Assembly: GCA_964612825.1 (NCBI GenBank)
Contig: CAZTCW010000051.1
Span: forward strand, 4,452 to 68,451
Reading direction: 5' to 3'
Origin: an uncultured Dehalococcoidia bacterium
GTDB lineage: Bacteria; Chloroflexota; Dehalococcoidia; Lucifugimonadales; UBA1127
DNA length: 64,000 nucleotides
Positions 54,051 through 60,951 of this stretch are shown in pieces. Under the pieces are notes generated by a model. The model had not been told where the DNA came from and made no database searches. It saw only the letters and a program-made list of their open reading frames with translations. How positions within the stretch are numbered: position 1 is the stretch's first letter; every line of letters begins with the position of its first letter. The translations under genes and the position numbers were made by a program.

Positions 54051-56471
54051 ATGGGTCGGCCGCCTCTAGGACGCAGCGAATTTTTCGGTTATTTGTTTTT
54101 AATTTTTAATTTATTTTTTATAGCTGGAACCGCCTGTTCCACGGATCAAGGATCCTTGAATCAAGGCCGTGACCAAACCGGTGGACCTAACGTTGAAGCC
54201 ACGTCGCCTCTTCAGAGCGCTCCAGAAAAGCCTTCTTCTGATCCTCTTGACGTCAATGCGGCCAAACTTCCTGAAAACCGAATTTTTGGAGGGAATCTTC
54301 GATATTTCGTTCCTCCAGATTGGGATCAAGCTCTCGTCATTTCTTCATTCCCTGACCCCTCATCTTCAATTAGCTCCCCCCCGATTGAAGACCTTTATAT
54401 AAGTTGGTCAATTGTCAGAGACGGGGAATTTTTGCTTACAACTGAATTTTTTGTGGATCTATATTTGGATGGCACTTTCCTTGAACGATGGAAAGTTGAT
54501 GCTTTAAATCCTGGAATACCGAAGATTATGTCTGGTTGGAGCGAACTTCTTTACCGAACTAATTTGAGCGCAGGGGAACATCAATTGGAATTGGTGATTG
54601 ATTCCACCGATCTAATCCTTGAAGATGATGAGGAAGATAATATCATTCTAATGAATTTTAGCGTCCCCAAAGATTCTTCCTCCATAGTCGAACCTACAAT
54701 TGCATTGGACCGTCTGCCAAATCTTATCCCTTTTACACCTCCGGGGTGGGACAATCCTATCAGGGTAAGAAACAATCAGGGTGCTTCGAACGGATTTGAA
54801 ATCGGAGAGGATCTTGAAATTCAAGTAGCCTTCAAAAACTCAGGCCTCTCAAGCGTAGACAGAAATTTTCTTGCCTATCTTTACCTTGATGAGATCCCGG
54901 TAGCAAAATTTTCCGAGCGAAATTTGATCGCCGACGAGGCGATAGTAACGTCAGAATGGTCTGGCCTGAATACTGTTTTGAGAATTGCTCCTGGCCAACA
55001 TACGTTCACGCTGGTGGTTGATCCTACACAATTAATCCAAGAAACCAAGGAGACTGATAATATCTTTACACGTACGGTAACTTGGGGACAAAATATGGAG
55101 ATTCCTAATGAAGCAGCCTTGATTCCATCTCAAATAAATTCTGGCTCGATAGGGCCGTTGGTTCCCCCGGGTTGGGATTCACCGTTAATAGTTACCTCTG
55201 TGCCTGGGAGCTTCATCTCCTCTTATGCGCTCAATTCTCTTGATCCAGCATTTGTGCATTGGGCTATGGTAAACCGAGGGGATCTGCCGTATGAAACACC
55301 ATACGAGATTGAACTGCATCTGGATGGGCGTATGATAAATTCATGGAACCGAACCCGGTTGGAATCGAATGAAACAGATATTGTATTTGACTGGGTTTTA
55401 GTTCCGCCCCTTGATGTGTATTCCACTTCGAAATTGGAGTTATTCGGACGGTTATTAGACGATTCGGGGAAACCAAAAGAAGTACTACTAGCTACAAAAT
55501 TGATACGATGGTCTGCTGGCCCCCAAAGTATCGAAACCAGCACTTTGGGGTTGGGAAGGTTATCACCCACTGAGCAATTAGTGTCATTGGAAGCCCTTCT
55601 GTCTACGAATAAATCGTTGATTAGTCACATAGGGCTGGTGAACAACCGAGCGATCCTAGATCTCGCTGATTCGGTTTACTACGAAATTTATTCTAAACGA
55701 CTTTCCAGCGAGGAGGTAAAAATTCACCTTCTAAGCGAATCAGAATACTCCCTCTGGATTTCAATTGAGTGTAAGGATCGAGGAAGTTATATCGCGGAAG
55801 AGGCTAGGGAGGAATACATTGACCAGTGTCACAGGATCGATGAGTTTGGAGGATTTTTCACCTACTGGAGAAACCATTTTCATGTCGTAATTCAAGCGGA
55901 ACGGCCTCCTATGAAAGTGTTCGAAACATTGGCGCATGAACTCGGACATTTCCGGCAAAGCCTAACAAATCCGCAAATAAATTCTACGAACCAGTCATTA
56001 AATGTGTTGGCCTTTAGGGAAGCTCAAGCATATAGCCATCAGGTTCTGTTTGTTCGTACCTTGGGAGAATTAGTAGGACGTGACCTTTTATCCTATCCAA
56101 AACTTGACGGATATGAATGGTTTATTGATCACGGGATTGACCAGTTGATGGATGGAGCCGATTCGAACGAGCATGACCGAGGTAGATTGCTACTCTGGTT
56201 ATCCGTTCTCACTGATCCTAAACTTGGCAATGCCAGAAATGCGTTATTGTTGAATAAATATTTAACTCCCGAGGCTGCGAAAGAAGTATTCTTGTATTTA
56301 CTGAGTTTCCGTCCTTCGATGATCTCTCCTTACGTAGCTGAGCAAATGGAAGCGAATAAAACCTATGAAAGTGTGATTTTGGAGATAGGTAATTCTCGGT
56401 TGTCATTCGGGGTTTCTTATTGGAATGAAGGATCCCCCTACTTGAGAGAGACAGGTCTTTTGTTACCTTAA
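54051..56471 (+). CDS. Exported (lipoprotein-like) protein with three CARDB-like repeats and a C-terminal HExxH zincin-like domain
   Basis: 806 aa. Signal peptide ending IAGTAC. Three roughly 120-aa repeats each open with PP(D/G)WD-x-(A/P)-(L/I)-(V/R)-(I/V). Repeats 1-2 end in E-(E/T)-D-N-I and repeat 3 has only N-E-T-D-I. HELGH occurs at …FETLAHELGHFRQS…. Confidence 0.6.
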   Translation: MGRPPLGRSEFFGYLFLIFNLFFIAGTACSTDQGSLNQGRDQTGGPNVEATSPLQSAPEKPSSDPLDVNAAKLPENRIFGGNLRYFVPPDWDQALVISSFPDPSSSISSPPIEDLYISWSIVRDGEFLLTTEFFVDLYLDGTFLERWKVDALNPGIPKIMSGWSELLYRTNLSAGEHQLELVIDSTDLILEDDEEDNIILMNFSVPKDSSSIVEPTIALDRLPNLIPFTPPGWDNPIRVRNNQGASNGFEIGEDLEIQVAFKNSGLSSVDRNFLAYLYLDEIPVAKFSERNLIADEAIVTSEWSGLNTVLRIAPGQHTFTLVVDPTQLIQETKETDNIFTRTVTWGQNMEIPNEAALIPSQINSGSIGPLVPPGWDSPLIVTSVPGSFISSYALNSLDPAFVHWAMVNRGDLPYETPYEIELHLDGRMINSWNRTRLESNETDIVFDWVLVPPLDVYSTSKLELFGRLLDDSGKPKEVLLATKLIRWSAGPQSIETSTLGLGRLSPTEQLVSLEALLSTNKSLISHIGLVNNRAILDLADSVYYEIYSKRLSSEEVKIHLLSESEYSLWISIECKDRGSYIAEEAREEYIDQCHRIDEFGGFFTYWRNHFHVVIQAERPPMKVFETLAHELGHFRQSLTNPQINSTNQSLNVLAFREAQAYSHQVLFVRTLGELVGRDLLSYPKLDGYEWFIDHGIDQLMDGADSNEHDRGRLLLWLSVLTDPKLGNARNALLLNKYLTPEAAKEVFLYLLSFRPSMISPYVAEQMEANKTYESVILEIGNSRLSFGVSYWNEGSPYLRETGLLLP

Positions 56472-57379: not shown

Positions 57380-58333
57380 ATGATCAAACACTTTACCGAT
57401 CTCCTAAAGGGAATAATTATTGTTTTAATCTCGATGTTCCTCTTTTTGAATTGCAGCTCCTTTACCGAACCCGTATCGGACCCAAAAAGTATCAACAACT
57501 CGGATGTTTCCCTGTTTTTGGCGGTGTCAGACATTGTGGTTGGTGAAAATCGGTTTTCCTTCGGGATGTTTGACAAGAATGGCTCGATGTTAAAAGACTC
57601 ACCGCTAGAGGTGGAATTTTTGTTGAACCCTGAGTCCAACGCTAAAACTGTCTTAAAAACTCAAGCTAATTTTATGGAAATTCAGGGTACGACGCCCCAT
57701 CGACATATCGACGGATCGATCCATTTACATGATGAGTCAGTAGGGTTTCATGTCGTTGATGGGGTAGAATTCAACGAGTTAGGAATCTGGGTAGCAAAGG
57801 TACGTACTGAAAAGGAAATAGAGTTGGACGTTCCTCCTAGTGAACTCTATTTTGAGGTGAAGGAAAAATCCTCTACTCTTGTCGTCGGTGATTTCATCCC
57901 TCAGAGTCAAAATCCGGTTATTACCCCTCTAATAGATTTTAAAGACATCACTACTCATCAACCCCCAATTCCAGAATTTTATCGGTTAACGATTGCCGAA
58001 GCTTTAACAGAGGCAAAACCGTTAGTCGTGGTGTTTTCCACTCCGGCATTCTGTATCAGTCGAATGTGTGGTCCAGTAACGGATGTAGTAGCCGAAGCAT
58101 TTAATACGTACAATAATTTCGCGAATTTTATTCATATAGAGCCTTGGGATTTAAAATCCGCCAGAGAAGGCGAACGGTTAATGTGGTCTGAAATAGCGGC
58201 TGAATGGCGGTTACCAAGCGAGCCCTGGGTGTTTATTGTTGATGACAAAGGGAAAGTTTTTGCTAGATTTGAAGGGCCAATAAGCTTGGAAGAGATTGAA
58301 GGATCCTTAGACCATCTTCTCCGACTAGAATAG
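57380..58333 (+). CDS. Exported two-domain protein: His-rich Ig-like N-domain plus thioredoxin-fold (Sco/TlpA-like) C-domain with a Cx4C motif
   Basis: 317 aa. Signal peptide then Cys (LFLNCSS). His cluster PHRHIDGSIHLHDE. Thioredoxin-like PLVVVFSTPAFCISRMCGPV … PWVFIVDDKGKV. Confidence 0.55.
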   Translation: MIKHFTDLLKGIIIVLISMFLFLNCSSFTEPVSDPKSINNSDVSLFLAVSDIVVGENRFSFGMFDKNGSMLKDSPLEVEFLLNPESNAKTVLKTQANFMEIQGTTPHRHIDGSIHLHDESVGFHVVDGVEFNELGIWVAKVRTEKEIELDVPPSELYFEVKEKSSTLVVGDFIPQSQNPVITPLIDFKDITTHQPPIPEFYRLTIAEALTEAKPLVVVFSTPAFCISRMCGPVTDVVAEAFNTYNNFANFIHIEPWDLKSAREGERLMWSEIAAEWRLPSEPWVFIVDDKGKVFARFEGPISLEEIEGSLDHLLRLE

Positions 58334-58362
58334 CATCAGTGGTTGCTGGTCAGTAATTTGAT

Positions 58363-58929
58363 TTGTGGGATTATCACTATATGTTATCAAACTGTTATCG
58401 GATGGCTCTGCCAATCAGGATAATTTTAGTAATAACTATTCTGGCAATTCTCTTAACAGACGGCTTTAAGGTCCATGCCAACGGTTCCCACCCAGGAGCG
58501 CAAGAAGTATTTTCTGATACGACTAGTAGGTTCCCGATACGAGTTCTAATGGTTCCAAGTGTAGGTAATGGGCACATGAATATATTGTTGGATTCTAATA
58601 ATGCCAATGTGAATACCGATGAAATTCAAATTTTCATTACCGCCCAGAATCCGATTGGGAATTTTTCTGGGCAAAACCCTATCCAGGCTACTCCCGCTTT
58701 TGGTTCTCCCGGATGGTATGGTGTAAATCTTCCCATTAATGAACCTGGACAATGGGGGTTTACTATCGAGATAACAGATGGGGAATCGAGGACATTAAAC
58801 AATTTCCGAGTGGATATAATGTCAAATTCTGATATCAATTGGCCTATCGTTTTCGCCCTTTTTATATTCACGCTAATATTTATATGGGCTATAATTTCTC
58901 GCGTCAGAAGAAAGCAATTAAGGAGATAA
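58363..58929 (+). CDS. Exported Ig-like (FixH/YtkA/CopC-like by pattern) protein with C-terminal membrane anchor
   Basis: 188 aa in the track (TTG start). The more likely start is ATG 58402 (MALPIRIILVITILAILL…VHA), which gives a classical signal peptide. It has a beta-rich domain (…GNGHMNILL…PGWYGVNLPINEPGQWGFTIEI…) and a C-terminal TM helix plus RRKQLRR. Confidence 0.5.
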   Translation: MWDYHYMLSNCYRMALPIRIILVITILAILLTDGFKVHANGSHPGAQEVFSDTTSRFPIRVLMVPSVGNGHMNILLDSNNANVNTDEIQIFITAQNPIGNFSGQNPIQATPAFGSPGWYGVNLPINEPGQWGFTIEITDGESRTLNNFRVDIMSNSDINWPIVFALFIFTLIFIWAIISRVRRKQLRR

Positions 58930-58933
58930 TATT

Positions 58934-59389
58934 ATGATCAAGGCCTTAGAATTTTTCAGTAGGAGGCTTTTTTTGTCAGCGGGATTAATCGTTATTTTGT
59001 CTTCAGGAATAAGTTGTACTAGTGCGGACCCTAGAGATCGGTCATTTAACCTCTCGATTGTTGACCAAAAATTGGTTAATCAAGATTCAAATCTAACGGT
59101 TAATCAAGATGATAGGGTGAACATAGTCATAAATTCAGATAAAAATGTTTTATTTCACCTCCATGGATACGATATTGAAAAATTGGTGAAGGCGGGCGAA
59201 CCAACGGAAATTGATTTTACAGCTAAGGCTTCGGGGAGCTTCCCGTTTACGATCCATGAGAGTGAATCAACTGAGGAACATGAGAGCCACGAGAACGCCA
59301 GTCATGGCCACCATGAAGACGGCCATGAGGAAGTTAGTGTTGCTGAGGATGAATTAGAATTAGGGCGCCTAGATGTTCTCCCTAACTAG
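58934..59389 (+). CDS. Exported cupredoxin-like (Cys-less) protein with His/Glu-rich C-terminal tail
   Basis: 151 aa. AAGGAG SD. Signal peptide then Cys (SSGISCTS). Cupredoxin_1-like strand pattern (FNLSIVDQKL…VNIVINSD…LFHLHGYDIE…GSFPFTIHE). Tail is HESESTEEHESHENASHGHHEDGHEE. Confidence 0.5.
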   Translation: MIKALEFFSRRLFLSAGLIVILSSGISCTSADPRDRSFNLSIVDQKLVNQDSNLTVNQDDRVNIVINSDKNVLFHLHGYDIEKLVKAGEPTEIDFTAKASGSFPFTIHESESTEEHESHENASHGHHEDGHEEVSVAEDELELGRLDVLPN

Positions 59390-59412
59390 GTGAAAATTCG
59401 GAGCCATTTCTT

Positions 59413-60951
59413 ATGACCGGTTACCTAAAGTTACTGTTTGCAATCTTTAATGTTGTTATCCTGGCGTTTGTTTATCAATCTGATGTCTTGGCACATGGTT
59501 TTGGTGAAAGGTATGATCTTCCCTTGCCGTTATGGTTGTACGTTAGCGGTGGTGGGATTGTAGTCTTTTCATCATTTTTAGCTATCGGATTCTTCCTCCA
59601 GAATCGGGAAATTATTTCTCATTACCCCACCAAAAAAATAGTCGGTATATTAAATGGTTCAAGAAGAATTCAGCAGGGGATGCTAGGAATACTTGGTTTG
59701 GCTTCTGCGGGCATCCTGGTCCTCGTCATCATCTCGGGTTTTATCGGGACGCAAATTCCCAGTGAGAACTTTTCACCTACCTTCGTTTGGATAATTTGGT
59801 GGACTGGTATGGCTTATTTGTCAGCAGTTTTTGGTAACTTTTGGGCCTTTCTCAATCCTTGGTACGTCCTTTTCAGTTTTTTTGAAAGGCTCTACCGGCT
59901 CGTAAGTCGTGGAGGTGAAATATCTTTAAAAGTTCCCTATCCTACCCAAATTGGTTGTTGGCCCGCAATAATTCTATATCTTTCTTTCGCTTGGTTTGAA
60001 TTGGTCTATCCCGAATCTGCAATTCCTGTGCGTCTTTCTCAATTCATACTTGTTTATTCGGGAATCACATTAATAGGGATGTTTCTTTTCGGGAAAGAAA
60101 TGTGGAGCCGAAACGGGGATCCCTTTTCACTATGTTTTGGGCTGATAGGGAAAATTGCTCCGGTTGAGGCCAGAGTATCAGACCCCCAGATTTGCAAGGA
60201 ATGTACAGCCCAGTGCCAATGGAGTGACGGCGTGTGTATCAATTGCTCAACTTGCTATTTTATGGCTTCTCCTATTGATCGAGAGATACTTTTTAGGCCC
60301 TTCGGGGCGGGGTTGCTCCAAAGCGAGAAGGTTTCAGTTCCAACAATGATATTTGTGATAGTTGTATTATCATCTGTCTCCTTCGATGGCTTTACCTCGA
60401 CTTTTCTGTGGCAACTGGTTTTCAGCGGAGTGTATGGAATCATCCCCAATGTTACGGTTACGGGTACTATAGGGCTTGTTGGGTTTTCGGTGGTCTTCCT
60501 TGCGGTTTATTTATTTTTCAGCGCTTTGATGTCTGCGGCAACCTCTTGGCGAATGCCAATTCTGGCGTTTGGCACAGCTTTTATCTATTCGCTTATCCCA
60601 ATCGCTTTAGCGTATCATCTAGCCCATTATTTTTCGTATTTACTGATTCAAGGGCAACTGATTTTTCCGCTCGCATCCGATCCGTTCGGTTTTGGATGGA
60701 ATCTATTTAATTCTGGAGATTTTGTAATCAATATTGCGATTGTTAATGCAAAATTTGCTTGGATTACCGCGTTAATTTCTATCATTTCTGGACACGTTAT
60801 TGCGATTTATGTCGCCCACGTTATAGCTATGCGGGTCTTTACGGAAAGGGTTCAGGCCTTAAGGAGTCAATACCCTATGGTGGTATTGATGGTAGGGTAC
60901 ACTATGTTGAGCCTTTGGACGCTGGCACAACCTCTTGTAGAATTCAGATAG
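59413..60951 (+). CDS. Polytopic (about 11 TM) membrane protein with predicted N-terminal His after signal cleavage and a six-Cys ferredoxin-like loop
   Basis: 512 aa. Signal-like N-terminus …SDVLA/HGFGERYDLPLP. Loop C261-x2-C-x3-C-x6-C-x2-C-x2-C281 (CKECTAQCQWSDGVCINCSTC). Conserved-looking His pairs sit in late TMs (AYHLAHY, SGHVIAIYVAHV). Confidence 0.55.
   Translation: MTGYLKLLFAIFNVVILAFVYQSDVLAHGFGERYDLPLPLWLYVSGGGIVVFSSFLAIGFFLQNREIISHYPTKKIVGILNGSRRIQQGMLGILGLASAGILVLVIISGFIGTQIPSENFSPTFVWIIWWTGMAYLSAVFGNFWAFLNPWYVLFSFFERLYRLVSRGGEISLKVPYPTQIGCWPAIILYLSFAWFELVYPESAIPVRLSQFILVYSGITLIGMFLFGKEMWSRNGDPFSLCFGLIGKIAPVEARVSDPQICKECTAQCQWSDGVCINCSTCYFMASPIDREILFRPFGAGLLQSEKVSVPTMIFVIVVLSSVSFDGFTSTFLWQLVFSGVYGIIPNVTVTGTIGLVGFSVVFLAVYLFFSALMSAATSWRMPILAFGTAFIYSLIPIALAYHLAHYFSYLLIQGQLIFPLASDPFGFGWNLFNSGDFVINIAIVNAKFAWITALISIISGHVIAIYVAHVIAMRVFTERVQALRSQYPMVVLMVGYTMLSLWTLAQPLVEFR

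What the first reader, a model, noticed from the sequence alone, without database searches (positions are those of the whole stretch)
57380..60951. Four-gene envelope operon of uncharacterised proteins that looks like a metal (Cu/Fe) redox-handling system
There are four same-strand genes separated by 29, 4 and 23 nt. All four are predicted to be exported or membrane-bound.
1. A two-domain protein with a His cluster (PHRHIDGSIHLHDE) and a thioredoxin-fold domain. Its redox motif is FCISRMCGP (Cx4C), which is reminiscent of Sco (CxxxC) rather than CxxC thioredoxins.
2. An Ig-like beta protein with a C-terminal anchor. It resembles FixH/YtkA/CopC by pattern only.
3. A cupredoxin-like protein with no Cys ligand but an HLHGYD motif and a long His/Glu tail (HESESTEEHESHENASHGHHEDGHEE).
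4. A roughly 11-TM protein with a six-Cys loop.

The domain mix echoes fixGHIS/ccoGHIS (membrane ferredoxin-like cupric reductase + FixH) and ycnKJI/copCD systems. It lacks their P-type ATPase and CopD hallmarks, and I cannot assign any of the four to a named family. It is the densest block of unknown-function genes in the window.
Basis: inference. Interest (0 to 1): 0.65.

Follow-up and report, generated by a model that had tools for sequence, protein, structure and literature searches.

The report
Uncharacterised envelope module, probably copper handling
The four genes are real, but they are one stand-alone lipoprotein gene plus a widespread three-gene module whose membrane protein matches no known family or solved structure; indirect evidence points to copper handling at the cell envelope.

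Summary
All four + strand ORFs, their spacings and the quoted motifs are confirmed.

They are not one conserved unit. g1 is a lipoprotein with a YtkA/CtaK-like His-cluster domain and a thioredoxin-fold Cx4C domain. It occurs alone in other genomes and stays intact in two syntenic relatives where g3/g4 have decayed.

The conserved core is g3+g4. A g3 homologue lies directly upstream of g4 in 63/76 genome loci and 55/65 metagenome loci, across many phyla. g2 joins them in Chloroflexota.

- **g3** is a cupredoxin-fold lipoprotein with no Cys ligand and near-invariant HxHGYD...H.
- **g4** has 6,379 cluster representatives, no Pfam, NCBIfam or PDB sequence match, and no Foldseek match to its confident model. 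I predict a signal peptide, an invariant His as first mature residue, 10 TM helices with conserved His/Glu/Asp, and a cytoplasmic six-Cys insert that a large sub-family lacks.

Copper is suggested only indirectly: Sco, PCuAC and heavy-metal ATPase genes nearby, g4 fusions to YtkA-like domains, and one Cu/Zn-SOD fusion.

Best reading: a functional analogue of CopC/CopD-YcnJ. Metal identity and transport direction are unproven.

The parts
57380..58333 (+). g1: lipoprotein with an N-terminal YtkA/CtaK-like domain and a C-terminal thioredoxin-fold domain. Evolutionarily independent of g2-g4.
   Evidence: Alignment A2. Pfam YtkA in 8/25 and Thioredoxin_2 in 10/25 family members. PDB thio-disulfide isomerase 3ia1, E 2e-4. 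Found alone in L086 and L087. Intact in L085 and L092, where g3/g4 have decayed.
57698..57730 (+). g1 His cluster H107-x-H109-x5-H115-x-H117 in the YtkA-like domain
   Evidence: All four His are invariant in 25 homologues.
58052..58069 (+). g1 C225-x4-C230 at the thioredoxin active-site position, followed by invariant H252 and E254
   Evidence: Invariant in A2. Aligns to the WCGPC region of thioredoxin 4ba7.
58363..58929 (+). g2: exported YtkA-like beta-sandwich with a C-terminal TM anchor. Accessory partner found in Chloroflexota.
   Evidence: Upstream of g3-g4 in 37/76 genome loci. YtkA sub-threshold in 11/34 members. hhalign against the domain fused to g4 in P0079 gives 70% probability, E 4e-5. 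A-N-G is conserved after the signal peptide.
58934..59389 (+). g3: cupredoxin-fold lipoprotein without a Cys ligand. The conserved partner of g4.
   Evidence: AF2 pLDDT over 90 for the beta-sandwich. Foldseek hits FtrB 8vuk, CuA domains and two-domain laccases at E about 1e-5 to 1e-6. Nitrosocyanin HMM E 1e-4. Directly upstream of g4 in 63/76 and 55/65 loci.
59156..59173 (+). g3 H75-L-H77-G-Y-D80 motif
   Evidence: H75 123, H77 122, G78 123, Y79 124 and D80 115 of 127 sequences.
59255..59353 (+). g3 H108 plus the His/Glu-rich disordered loop between the last two strands, at the position of the cupredoxin ligand loop
   Evidence: H108 is 125/127. The loop is 11% His, 17% Asp/Glu and 1% Met+Cys across the family. 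pLDDT is below 50 for residues 115-136. Other lineages carry a DUF4399-like insert here.
59413..60951 (+). g4: signal peptide plus a 10-TM membrane protein of an undescribed family
   Evidence: 3,027 hits. 6,379 representatives. No Pfam, NCBIfam or PDB sequence match. AF2 pTM 0.82 with no Foldseek match in the PDB; best TM-score about 0.1-0.2. Topology from the positive-inside rule.
59494..59529 (+). g4 mature N-terminus H28-G-F-G-E-R-Y-D-L-P-L-P, predicted to be extracytoplasmic after cleavage at A27|H28
   Evidence: H28 190/190, A27 183/190, R33/Y34/D35/P37/P39 at least 184/190. Retained in the Cys-less sub-family.
60193..60255 (+). g4 six-Cys insert (C261, 264, 268, 275, 278, 281), predicted cytoplasmic and accessory
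   Evidence: Each Cys is 177-186/190 within this clade. The loop 227-308 carries about 10 Lys/Arg, so it is predicted inside. The segment is absent from a large 460-490 aa sub-family.
60613..60819 (+). g4 intramembrane Y401-H402-x2-H405 (TM8), the external S422-D423-P424-F-G loop, and H461/H469 (TM9)
   Evidence: H405 189, H461 190, H469 189, D423 187 and S422 190 of 190. H402 is 176 and is variable in the Cys-less clade.

Best explanation
The region holds two units.

**Unit A: g2-g3-g4, with g3+g4 as the universal core.** I interpret it as an envelope metal-trafficking module, most likely for copper, that does the job of CopC/CopD (YcnJ/YcnI) with unrelated parts.
- g3 is a lipoprotein with a cupredoxin fold. 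It would hold a metal ion on the outer face through His75/His77/His108 and nearby carboxylates, helped by its His/acidic loop.
- g4 is a 10-TM protein. After signal-peptide cleavage its first residue is an invariant His, on the outside. I propose that this residue receives or donates the ion.
- The ion would pass a site formed by invariant His405, His461, His469, Glu196 and Asp325 inside the membrane.
- In this clade a cytoplasmic six-Cys insert would act as acceptor, donor or sensor.
- g2 is a membrane-anchored YtkA-like domain. It would act on the outer face as CtaK or the YtkA domain of YcnJ does, passing copper towards Sco-type chaperones and cuproenzymes.

**Unit B: g1.** This is a separate lipoprotein that fuses a CtaK-like His-cluster domain to a Sco/TlpA-like thioredoxin fold (Cx4C...H). 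It is probably a copper chaperone or thiol reductase for cuproprotein maturation.

**Shown:** gene structure, conservation, folds, predicted topology, gene linkage and fusions.

**Inferred:** the metal, the direction (uptake is favoured because no energy-coupling partner is present, but export towards periplasmic cuproenzymes is equally compatible), and every ligand role.
For: **Linkage**
- A g3 homologue lies directly upstream of g4 in 63/76 genome loci spanning Chloroflexota, Methylomirabilota/Rokubacteria, Nitrospinaceae/Nitrospiraceae, several proteobacterial classes and other lineages.
- The same holds in 55/65 metagenome loci.
- g2 is present in 37/76 genome loci.

**Ligand-like invariants**.

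**Topology**
- The positive-inside rule gives N-out, C-out and the Cys insert inside.
- This agrees with C-terminal fusions to extracytoplasmic domains: a family-5 SBP-like domain, YtkA-like domains and SodC.

**Copper links**
- All 11 Sco ORFs, in 8/80 loci, lie 0-2.5 kb downstream of g4 although +/-10 kb was searched. In L001 the Sco gene directly follows g4.
- PCuAC occurs in 3 loci among the two nearest downstream genes.
- HMA P-type ATPases occur in 3 loci among the two nearest upstream genes.
- L091 carries HMA/E1-E2 ATPase, multicopper oxidase, DtxR and Zip genes nearby.
- g4 is fused to a YtkA-like domain in a 36-member cluster. That domain matches the g2 profile at 70% probability, E 4e-5.
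- One g4 homologue is fused to Cu/Zn-SOD, E 7e-34.

**Fold**: g3 is a cupredoxin fold.

**Literature**
- CtaK (YtkA) is thought to work with Sco in CuA assembly.
- YcnJ is CopC-CopD-YtkA, and its function requires an extracellular His (H24) and a membrane His (H295) (PMC13344008; PMC9145763).
Against: - No experiment and no metal-specific signature supports the model.
- Three-His sites and an N-terminal His also suit Ni, Co, Zn or Fe(II).
- The g3 loop has almost no Met or Cys, so it does not look like a periplasmic Cu(I) site.
- Most loci have no copper gene nearby. The commonest neighbours are unrelated: MFS, cupin, Lit and metallo-beta-lactamase-fold proteins.
- The SodC fusion is a singleton on a 3.2 kb contig.
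- The YtkA assignments for g2 and the fused domains are below Pfam's thresholds.
- No copper-responsive regulator was seen.
- The module is dispensable in close relatives.
- The structural model could not be inspected at coordinate level, so clustering of the conserved TM residues is assumed rather than measured.
Confidence: 0.5

Rival explanations
1. An iron uptake system of the oxidase-permease type, like FtrABCD, EfeUOB or Fet3-Ftr1. g3 would oxidise or bind Fe(II) and g4 would carry iron across the membrane.
For: The best Foldseek hit of g3 is FtrB of the FtrABCD iron transporter (8vuk, E 3.6e-6, rmsd 1.7 A over 73 columns). FtrB is also a Cys-less cupredoxin (PMC11966278). A DtxR-type regulator and a multicopper oxidase lie near one locus. 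MFS_3 transporters recur upstream.
Against: No FTR1, P19 or Fer4 Pfam signal was found in any of 28 g4 members or in g2. No REXXE-type motif is among the g4 invariants. g3's conserved residues are His, whereas FtrB's conserved iron ligands are Glu. The FtrB hit is only marginally better than the CuA and laccase hits. The neighbours that recur independently are Sco and PCuAC, not iron genes.
Confidence: 0.13
2. An uptake system for another divalent metal (Ni, Co or Zn) or for a metal-chelate. The processed N-terminal His would work as in the HupE/UreJ or CbiM/NikM transporters (recalled from my own knowledge, not tested here).
For: The invariant His is the first mature residue and there are intramembrane His. 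The g3 loop is rich in His and acidic residues and lacks Met/Cys. Many homologues carry a C-terminal domain related to a family-5 solute-binding protein, E 1.3e-11; my own knowledge is that this class includes NikA-type nickel and metallophore binders. A Zip transporter lies near one locus. SodC also needs Zn.
Against: No Pfam hit to any Ni/Co/Zn transporter family was found. The partners are cupredoxin and YtkA folds, and the neighbours are Sco and PCuAC, all tied to copper in the literature read. No urease, hydrogenase, cobalamin or Zur/Nik gene ranked in the neighbour census.
Confidence: 0.15
3. A membrane redox complex or enzyme. g3 would be a type-2 copper centre on the outside, wired through g4 to a cytoplasmic Fe-S cluster on the six Cys, as in CcoG/FixG cupric reductase. 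Alternatively g3 and g4 together would form a copper active site for an oxidase or monooxygenase.
For: The six Cys in a cytoplasmic loop have CxxC and CxxCxxC spacing. One source names a homologue 'polyferredoxin'. The HxHG motif resembles multicopper-oxidase motifs, with sub-threshold Cu-oxidase_2 hits. From my own knowledge, an N-terminal His plus HxH recalls the PmoB copper site.
Against: A large sub-family lacks the Cys insert yet keeps the g3 partner and all other invariants, so Fe-S wiring cannot be the core mechanism. No Fer4 hit was found. The only PDB sequence hits to the Cys region are insignificant (E at least 0.4). There are no heme-type His pairs with trans-membrane spacing (inference). 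No fold match to pMMO or any oxidoreductase was found.
Confidence: 0.1

Closest known systems
CopC/CopD and the B. subtilis YcnJ (CopC-CopD-YtkA) / YcnI copper acquisition system
   Same: The logic matches. An extracytoplasmic beta-sandwich metal binder works with a polytopic membrane protein that has an essential extracellular His and an essential membrane His, plus a YtkA domain that is either fused or separate (PMC13344008; compare). Both are linked to Sco and heme-copper oxidase maturation.
   Different: There is no sequence relationship: no CopC or CopD Pfam hit in any member. The N-terminal His sits on the membrane protein here, not on the soluble one. The soluble partner is a cupredoxin fold with a three-His motif. 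g4 has 10 TM helices and, in this clade, a cytoplasmic six-Cys insert.
CuA-assembly chaperones Sco, PCuAC, CtaK (YtkA) and TlpA
   Same: g1 combines a YtkA/CtaK-like domain with a thioredoxin fold bearing two Cys and a downstream His, and it is a lipoprotein like CtaK and B. subtilis Sco. g3's fold and His-rich extension recall PCuAC, and the tail recalls CtaK's EEEHSHHH. Sco and PCuAC genes neighbour g4 in several lineages.
   Different: g1 has Cx4C rather than CxxxC and gives no SCO1/SenC Pfam hit. g3 lacks the H(M)X10MX21HXM motif of PCuAC. None of these known chaperones is paired with a g4-like membrane protein in the papers read.
FtrABCD / EfeUOB iron transporters (FtrB Cys-less cupredoxin, FTR1 permease, polyferredoxin FtrD)
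   Same: Both are multi-gene envelope systems that pair a Cys-less cupredoxin with a membrane protein. FtrB is the top structural match of g3.
   Different: g4 is not an FTR1 permease or a polyferredoxin. g2 is not P19. The conserved ligands are His rather than Glu.
FixG/CcoG-FixH
   Same: A membrane protein with a Cys-rich cytoplasmic segment is found together with an Ig-like domain of the YtkA/FixH type.
   Different: No Fer4 or FixG signature was found. The Cys segment is dispensable in a large sub-family. No FixI-type ATPase is systematically linked.

Membership tests
CopD (PF05425) / CopC (PF04234) copper uptake proteins | Sequence match to the CopD membrane domain (g4) or the CopC domain (g2/g3) | tested here: not met
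   hmmscan of 28 g4 members at E up to 1 gave no CopD hit. g2 and g3 gave no CopC hit.
CopD/YcnJ-type system (functional resemblance) | YtkA domain fused or adjacent to the membrane component | tested here: met
   g2 lies upstream in 37/76 loci. g4-YtkA-like fusions P0287 and P0079 exist, the latter in a 36-member cluster. hhalign of the g2 profile against the fused domain gives 70% probability, E 4e-5. The Pfam scores are below the gathering threshold.
SCO1/SenC | Thioredoxin fold with CxxxC...H and a PF02630 match | tested here: not met
   g1 has a thioredoxin fold but C-x4-C...H252. No PF02630 hit in the window protein or in 25 homologues.
YtkA/CtaK (PF13115) | Match to PF13115 above threshold; lipoprotein with conserved His | tested here: inconclusive
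   For the g1 family, 8/25 members hit at E up to 0.01 (best 2.6e-7), but the window's own g1 does not. For the g2 family, 11/34 hit at E up to 0.1 (best 6e-4), and the window's own g2 scores 0.14. The g1 lipobox Cys and four His are invariant.
Type-1 blue copper cupredoxins | Cupredoxin fold with a His-Cys-His-Met ligand set | tested here: not met
   The fold is met. There is no Cys in the mature domain, and the ligand loop is replaced by a His/acidic loop.
Multicopper oxidase | Two or more cupredoxin domains with four HxH-type motifs; Cu-oxidase Pfam match above threshold | tested here: not met
   g3 has a single domain and one HxHG motif. Cu-oxidase_2 scores 20.2 bits against a cut-off of 20.4.
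FTR1/EfeU iron permease and FtrD/FixG polyferredoxin | PF03239 match with REXXE motifs; Fer4-type CxxCxxCxxxCP domains | tested here: not met
   No such hits in 28 members. The invariant list has no REXXE. The Cys pattern is CxxCxxxCx6CxxCxxC and is absent from a sub-family.
Any solved membrane-protein fold | Structural similarity of the g4 model to a PDB chain | tested here: not met
   Foldseek of the pTM 0.82 model gave 0 hits at E up to 0.001; the best is E 0.16 and TM-scores are about 0.1-0.2. AlphaFold DB was not available.
Histidine-brace copper site (CopC, YcnI, LPMO, PmoB) | The N-terminal amine and imidazole of the first mature residue coordinate Cu(II) | not testable with these tools
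   Only the prerequisite is shown: His is invariant directly after a conserved Ala at a signal-peptidase-like site. Cleavage and metal binding are not tested.

The most novel reading that the evidence does not exclude
g3 and g4 define a new two-component family in which the processed N-terminal His of a membrane protein with a previously unseen fold docks onto the HxH...H face of a Cys-less cupredoxin. Together they would build a shared His-brace-like copper centre, reminiscent of the PmoB CuB site but split over two proteins. The complex would then be either a new class of bacterial copper transporter or a new membrane-bound copper enzyme. It would be widespread in SAR202/Dehalococcoidia, Rokubacteria/Methylomirabilota, Nitrospinaceae and several proteobacterial classes.
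Probability: 0.2. Interest if true: 0.85.

Novelty: new variant of a known kind. Interest (0 to 1): 0.62.

Why it matters
Few routes are established for how bacteria bring copper across the cytoplasmic membrane and hand it to envelope cuproenzymes; my recollection is that CcoA and CopCD/YcnJ are the main examples. The literature read here still calls the trafficking steps speculative (PMC13344008).

This module is a candidate alternative solution:
- It is a two- or three-gene unit found in at least 566 species-level genomes.
- It has 6,379 representatives of 50%-identity clusters.
- It is concentrated in abundant but mostly uncultured aerobic lineages such as SAR202/Dehalococcoidia, Rokubacteria, Nitrospinaceae and marine proteobacteria.

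The membrane component has no Pfam or NCBIfam model and no structural relative in the PDB, so it is unannotated in every genome that carries it.

If the copper role is confirmed, it would fill a gap in the copper budgets of these organisms and add a new transporter fold. Even if the metal turns out to be different, the invariant processed N-terminal His and the obligatory cupredoxin partner make a clear, testable mechanism.

Tried and rejected
1. **A conserved four-gene operon.** Rejected. g1 is never near g4 in 80 genome loci, even with iterated profiles, and it occurs alone elsewhere.
2. **g2-g4 as a recent insertion next to g1.** I inferred this first from L085 lacking called genes. tblastn then found g2 and g4 remnants in L085, and a truncated g3 plus a frameshifted g4 in L092. 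The module is therefore ancestral at this locus and decaying in relatives.
3. **Named-family assignment of g4.** Pfam and NCBIfam on the window protein, Pfam on 28 members, an HMM against PDB sequences, and Foldseek against the PDB were all negative.
4. **A 5+5 internal repeat in g4.** hhalign of the two halves gave 0.7% probability.
5. **The six Cys as the core redox cofactor site.** Weakened by the Cys-less sub-family.
6. **Pfam identification of the C-terminal extension of long g4 forms.** No hit was found. phmmer against the PDB then matched a peptide-type SBP. The 380-440 aa ORF upstream of those long forms stayed unidentified.
7. **Literature searches** for a prior description of the pair, and for PDB entries 7FI3 and 9LL2, found nothing relevant.
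8. **Riboswitch or other RNA element in the operon.** None was found.
9. **Coordinate-level inspection of the AF2 models.** The model files are not exposed to scripts.

Full report
**1.

One search shows four + strand ORFs at 57380-58333 (g1, 317 aa), 58363-58929 (g2, 188 aa), 58934-59389 (g3, 151 aa) and 59413-60951 (g4, 512 aa). The gaps are 29, 4 and 23 nt. The block is bounded by a divergent uracil-DNA glycosylase gene and a convergent SbcC-like gene. No terminator-like site above shuffle expectation separates the genes, and no Rfam element lies in the region. At curated thresholds none of the four matches a Pfam or NCBIfam family. There are only weak hints: Thioredoxin_2, YtkA, and Cupredoxin_1/nitrosocyanin.

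**2. Which genes belong together**

A scan of one genome per species found at least 566 genomes encoding a g4 relative; the best 80 loci were kept. They span Dehalococcoidia/SAR202, Methylomirabilota/Rokubacteria, Nitrospinaceae, Nitrospiraceae, alpha-, beta-, gamma- and deltaproteobacteria, Trueperaceae and a spirochaete MAG.

Iterated profile searches of all ORFs in those loci gave these counts for loci with enough upstream sequence:
- a g3 homologue directly upstream of g4, same strand, usually under 80 nt away: 63 of 76
- a g2 homologue: 37 of 76, all of them titled Chloroflexota, Dehalococcoidia or SAR202
- a g1 homologue: none

An independent metagenome sample gave g3 upstream in 55 of 65 evaluable loci.

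g1 homologues (about 844 hits, Chloroflexota where a source names the organism) sit alone in unrelated contexts in L086 and L087.

Two relatives share the window's flanks: H+-PPase, an 806-aa CARDB protein and UDG on one side, SbcC on the other.
- In L085, g1 is intact. g2 is interrupted by a stop, g3 is gone, and only about 105 C-terminal codons of g4 remain.
- In L092, g1 and g2 are intact. g3 is truncated, and g4 is split over three frames with residues 35-182 missing.

So g2-g4 was ancestrally adjacent to g1 in this lineage but is dispensable, and g1 is retained independently. The 'four-gene operon' is g1 plus a g2-g3-g4 module whose universal core is g3+g4.

**3. g4**

The family is large: 3,027 hits in the word-indexed search, and 6,379 representatives of 50%-identity clusters at E up to 1e-3, of which 1,579 are at E up to 1e-30. 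None of 28 diverse members hits any Pfam family at E up to 1 in a meaningful way. A family HMM finds nothing in PDB sequences. The AlphaFold2 model is confident (pLDDT 80, pTM 0.82), yet Foldseek finds no PDB chain at E up to 0.001, and the best TM-scores are about 0.1-0.2.

Hydropathy plus Lys/Arg counts across the alignment give a clean positive-inside pattern:
- a signal peptide, then an extracytoplasmic N-terminus
- ten TM helices
- cytoplasmic loops 64-85, 141-182, 227-308 (the Cys segment) and 475-481
- an extracytoplasmic C-terminus

This agrees with the C-terminal fusions seen in homologues. All of them are to domains whose characterised relatives are extracytoplasmic, by my own knowledge of SBPs and SodC, and for YtkA:
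- a family-5-type solute-binding-protein-like domain (PDB 7fi3, E 1.3e-11)
- YtkA-like domains (P0287; P0079, which heads a 36-member cluster)
- a Cu/Zn superoxide dismutase domain (P0294, E 6.6e-34; a singleton)

Conservation over 190 homologues:

| Position | Count of 190 |
|---|---|
| His28 (preceded by Ala in 183) | 190 |
| Arg33, Tyr34, Asp35, Pro37, Pro39 (HGFGxRYDLPxP motif) | at least 184 each |
| Glu196 | 189 |
| Asp325 | 190 |
| His405 | 189 |
| His461 | 190 |
| His469 | 189 |
| Ser422-Asp423-Pro424 | at least 187 each |
| Each of the six Cys | 177-186 |

A large sub-family of 460-490 aa lacks the Cys segment completely, and His402 varies in it. It keeps everything else and still pairs with g3 in 40/48 loci. 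The six-Cys loop is therefore a clade-specific cytoplasmic accessory, not the core of the mechanism. No internal repeat was detected.

**4. g3**

The family alignment shows a lipobox Cys in this clade. It also shows near-invariant Asp60, His75-x-His77-Gly-Tyr-Asp80 and His108, and a final strand ending in an invariant Pro150.

The AF2 model has pLDDT above 90 over the sandwich. It matches cupredoxin domains: FtrB 8vuk (E 3.6e-6, rmsd 1.7 A), CuA domains of oxidases and N2O reductase, two-domain laccases and the B. anthracis Cupredoxin_1 protein. The family HMM hits nitrosocyanin at E 1e-4.

Across the family this loop is 11% His, 17% Asp/Glu and only 1% Met+Cys. Many Dehalococcoidia have a DUF4399-like insert there instead.

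**5. g2 and g1**

g2 has a signal peptide followed by an invariant Ala-Asn-Gly, a beta-rich domain with few conserved residues, a C-terminal TM helix and a basic tail.
- Eleven of 34 family members hit Pfam YtkA below threshold.
- The best PDB sequence hit is a 'copper resistance protein' at E 0.04.
- The g2 profile aligns to the domain fused to g4 in P0079 with 70% probability, E 4e-5.

g1 is a lipoprotein with two domains.
- The N-terminal domain hits YtkA in 8/25 relatives (best 2.6e-7). It carries four invariant His: 107, 109, 115 and 117.
- The C-terminal domain hits Thioredoxin_2 in 10/25 relatives and a Thermus thiol-disulfide isomerase in the PDB. It has invariant C225-x4-C230, H252 and E254.

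In the literature read:
- CtaK (YtkA) is a lipoprotein with conserved His and Met and an acidic/His tail, thought to act with Sco in CuA assembly.
- Sco is a thioredoxin-fold CxxxC...H copper protein.
- YcnJ is CopC-CopD-YtkA. Its function requires an extracellular His (H24) and a membrane His (H295).

These points come from PMC9145763 and PMC13344008. g1 therefore looks like a natural CtaK-plus-Sco/TlpA-like fusion, although it fails strict Sco membership (Cx4C, no PF02630 hit).

**6. Neighbourhood evidence for the metal**

Outside the module the context is variable, but copper genes recur.
- Sco occurs in 8 of 80 loci, drawn from Dehalococcoidales, SAR202, deltaproteobacterial and spirochaete MAGs and others. 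All 11 Sco ORFs lie 0-2.5 kb downstream of g4 although +/-10 kb was searched. In L001 the Sco gene directly follows g4 and a cytochrome c gene precedes g2.
- If Sco were placed at random in the flanks, the chance that all loci fall in that quarter is about 0.25^6 to 0.25^8. This is my inference, allowing for related genomes.
- PCuAC is among the two nearest downstream genes in 3 loci.
- HMA-type P-type ATPases are among the two nearest upstream genes in 3 loci.
- L091 has an HMA/E1-E2 ATPase, a multicopper oxidase, a DtxR-family regulator and a Zip transporter close by.

Together with the YtkA and SodC fusions, these are the only pointers to a specific metal, and they point to copper.

**7. 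Mechanism proposed**

g3 on the outer face holds Cu(II) with three His. The processed His28 terminus of g4 exchanges the ion with g3. The ion then passes the His405/His461/His469/Glu196/Asp325 site. In this clade the cytoplasmic six-Cys insert accepts, donates or senses it. g2 (YtkA-like) and, separately, g1 pass copper to or from Sco-type chaperones and cuproenzymes.

This mirrors CopC/CopD-YcnJ in logic, with no detectable homology. Direction is open. Uptake needs no coupling partner, but the SodC, YtkA, Sco and PCuAC links would also fit delivery to periplasmic cuproenzymes. I give this explanation about 0.5. Some role in metal handling seems likelier than that.

**8. Rivals**

- **Iron uptake of the FtrABCD type.** FtrB is the best structural hit, but g4 shows no FTR1, P19 or Fer4 features, and the conserved ligands are His rather than Glu.
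- **Ni, Co, Zn or metallophore uptake.** The N-terminal His and the SBP-5-like fusions fit. No supporting neighbours were found.
- **A redox complex.** This is weakened by the Cys-less sub-family.

**9. Novelty**

The soluble parts belong to known fold classes. The membrane protein and the obligatory g3-g4 pairing were not found in any library or paper searched. I rate it a new variant of a known kind of system, namely an envelope metal chaperone plus a membrane permease. There is a real chance that it is a new transporter or enzyme class.

**10. Limits**

- There are no experiments.
- The YtkA assignments are sub-threshold.
- The SodC fusion is a single contig.
- ORF calling in the fetched loci was crude.
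- Model coordinates could not be inspected.
- AlphaFold DB was unavailable.

Noticed in passing
L085:8990-9910 and L092:3988-5566 (syntenic to window 58363-60951): In two relatives with the same flanking genes the g2-g4 module is decaying. In L085, g2 has a premature stop, g3 is deleted and only the last ~105 codons of g4 remain. In L092, g3 is truncated and g4 is split over three frames with residues 35-182 missing. g1 stays intact in both.
   Followed up: yes
g4 homologues P0308, P0315, P0324, P0325 and others (alignment A7); metagenome loci L094-L173: A large sub-family of g4 (460-490 aa) lacks the six-Cys insert entirely. It keeps the processed N-terminal His motif, the TM His/Glu/Asp residues and the g3 partner.
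   Followed up: yes
L010, L022, L024, L045, L057, L063, L072 and many of L100-L167 (g4 ORFs of ~900 aa): Long g4 forms carry a ~400 aa C-terminal domain related to a peptide-type (family 5) solute-binding protein (PDB 7fi3, E 1.3e-11). In several genome loci (L008, L010, L022, L024, L045, L057) they are preceded by an unidentified 380-440 aa exported protein, and Liv-type ABC permease genes lie nearby in some. The ligand is unknown.
   Followed up: partly
P0294 (JGI contig, 3.2 kb); P0287; P0079 (36-member cluster); P0271, P0299, P0108: Domain fusions to the g4 C-terminus: a Cu/Zn superoxide dismutase domain followed by a further TM helix (singleton), YtkA-like domains, and TPR repeats.
   Followed up: partly
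g3 homologues in many Dehalococcoidia, e.g. L021:9212-9967, P0255, P0257: The cupredoxin ligand-loop position holds a ~100 aa insert with a GHWHL motif and a sub-threshold DUF4399 hit, in place of the short His/Glu loop of the window protein.
   Followed up: no
L020:7550-8011 and 10 other loci; L081:6212-6640: A small His-rich membrane-anchored protein (~150 aa, e.g. HHAVERHPQHGHLF...HEHGSQVGHTHSGD) recurs upstream of g2 on the same strand in 11 of 80 loci. It has no Pfam hit.
   Followed up: no
L026:11924-12670 and five other Dehalococcoidia loci: A Lit (lipoprotein intramolecular transacylase) gene lies just downstream of g4 on the opposite strand. This may be plain synteny, or it may relate to g1 and g3 being lipoproteins.
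   Followed up: no
window 54051-56471 (+): The 806-aa exported protein has an HELGH (HExxH) motif near its C-terminus. Its syntenic counterpart in L085 carries a CARDB domain. It may be a cell-surface metalloprotease.
   Followed up: no
window 58363-58402: The g2 ORF starts at a TTG, with in-frame ATGs 6 and 13 codons downstream (58381, 58402). The true start, and hence the real g1-g2 gap of 29-68 nt, is uncertain.
   Followed up: no
window 58477-58485 and g2 homologues: An Ala-Asn-Gly tripeptide right after the g2 signal peptide is essentially invariant (A39 and G41 in 34/34). A His follows two residues later in many members. Its role is unexplained.
   Followed up: no
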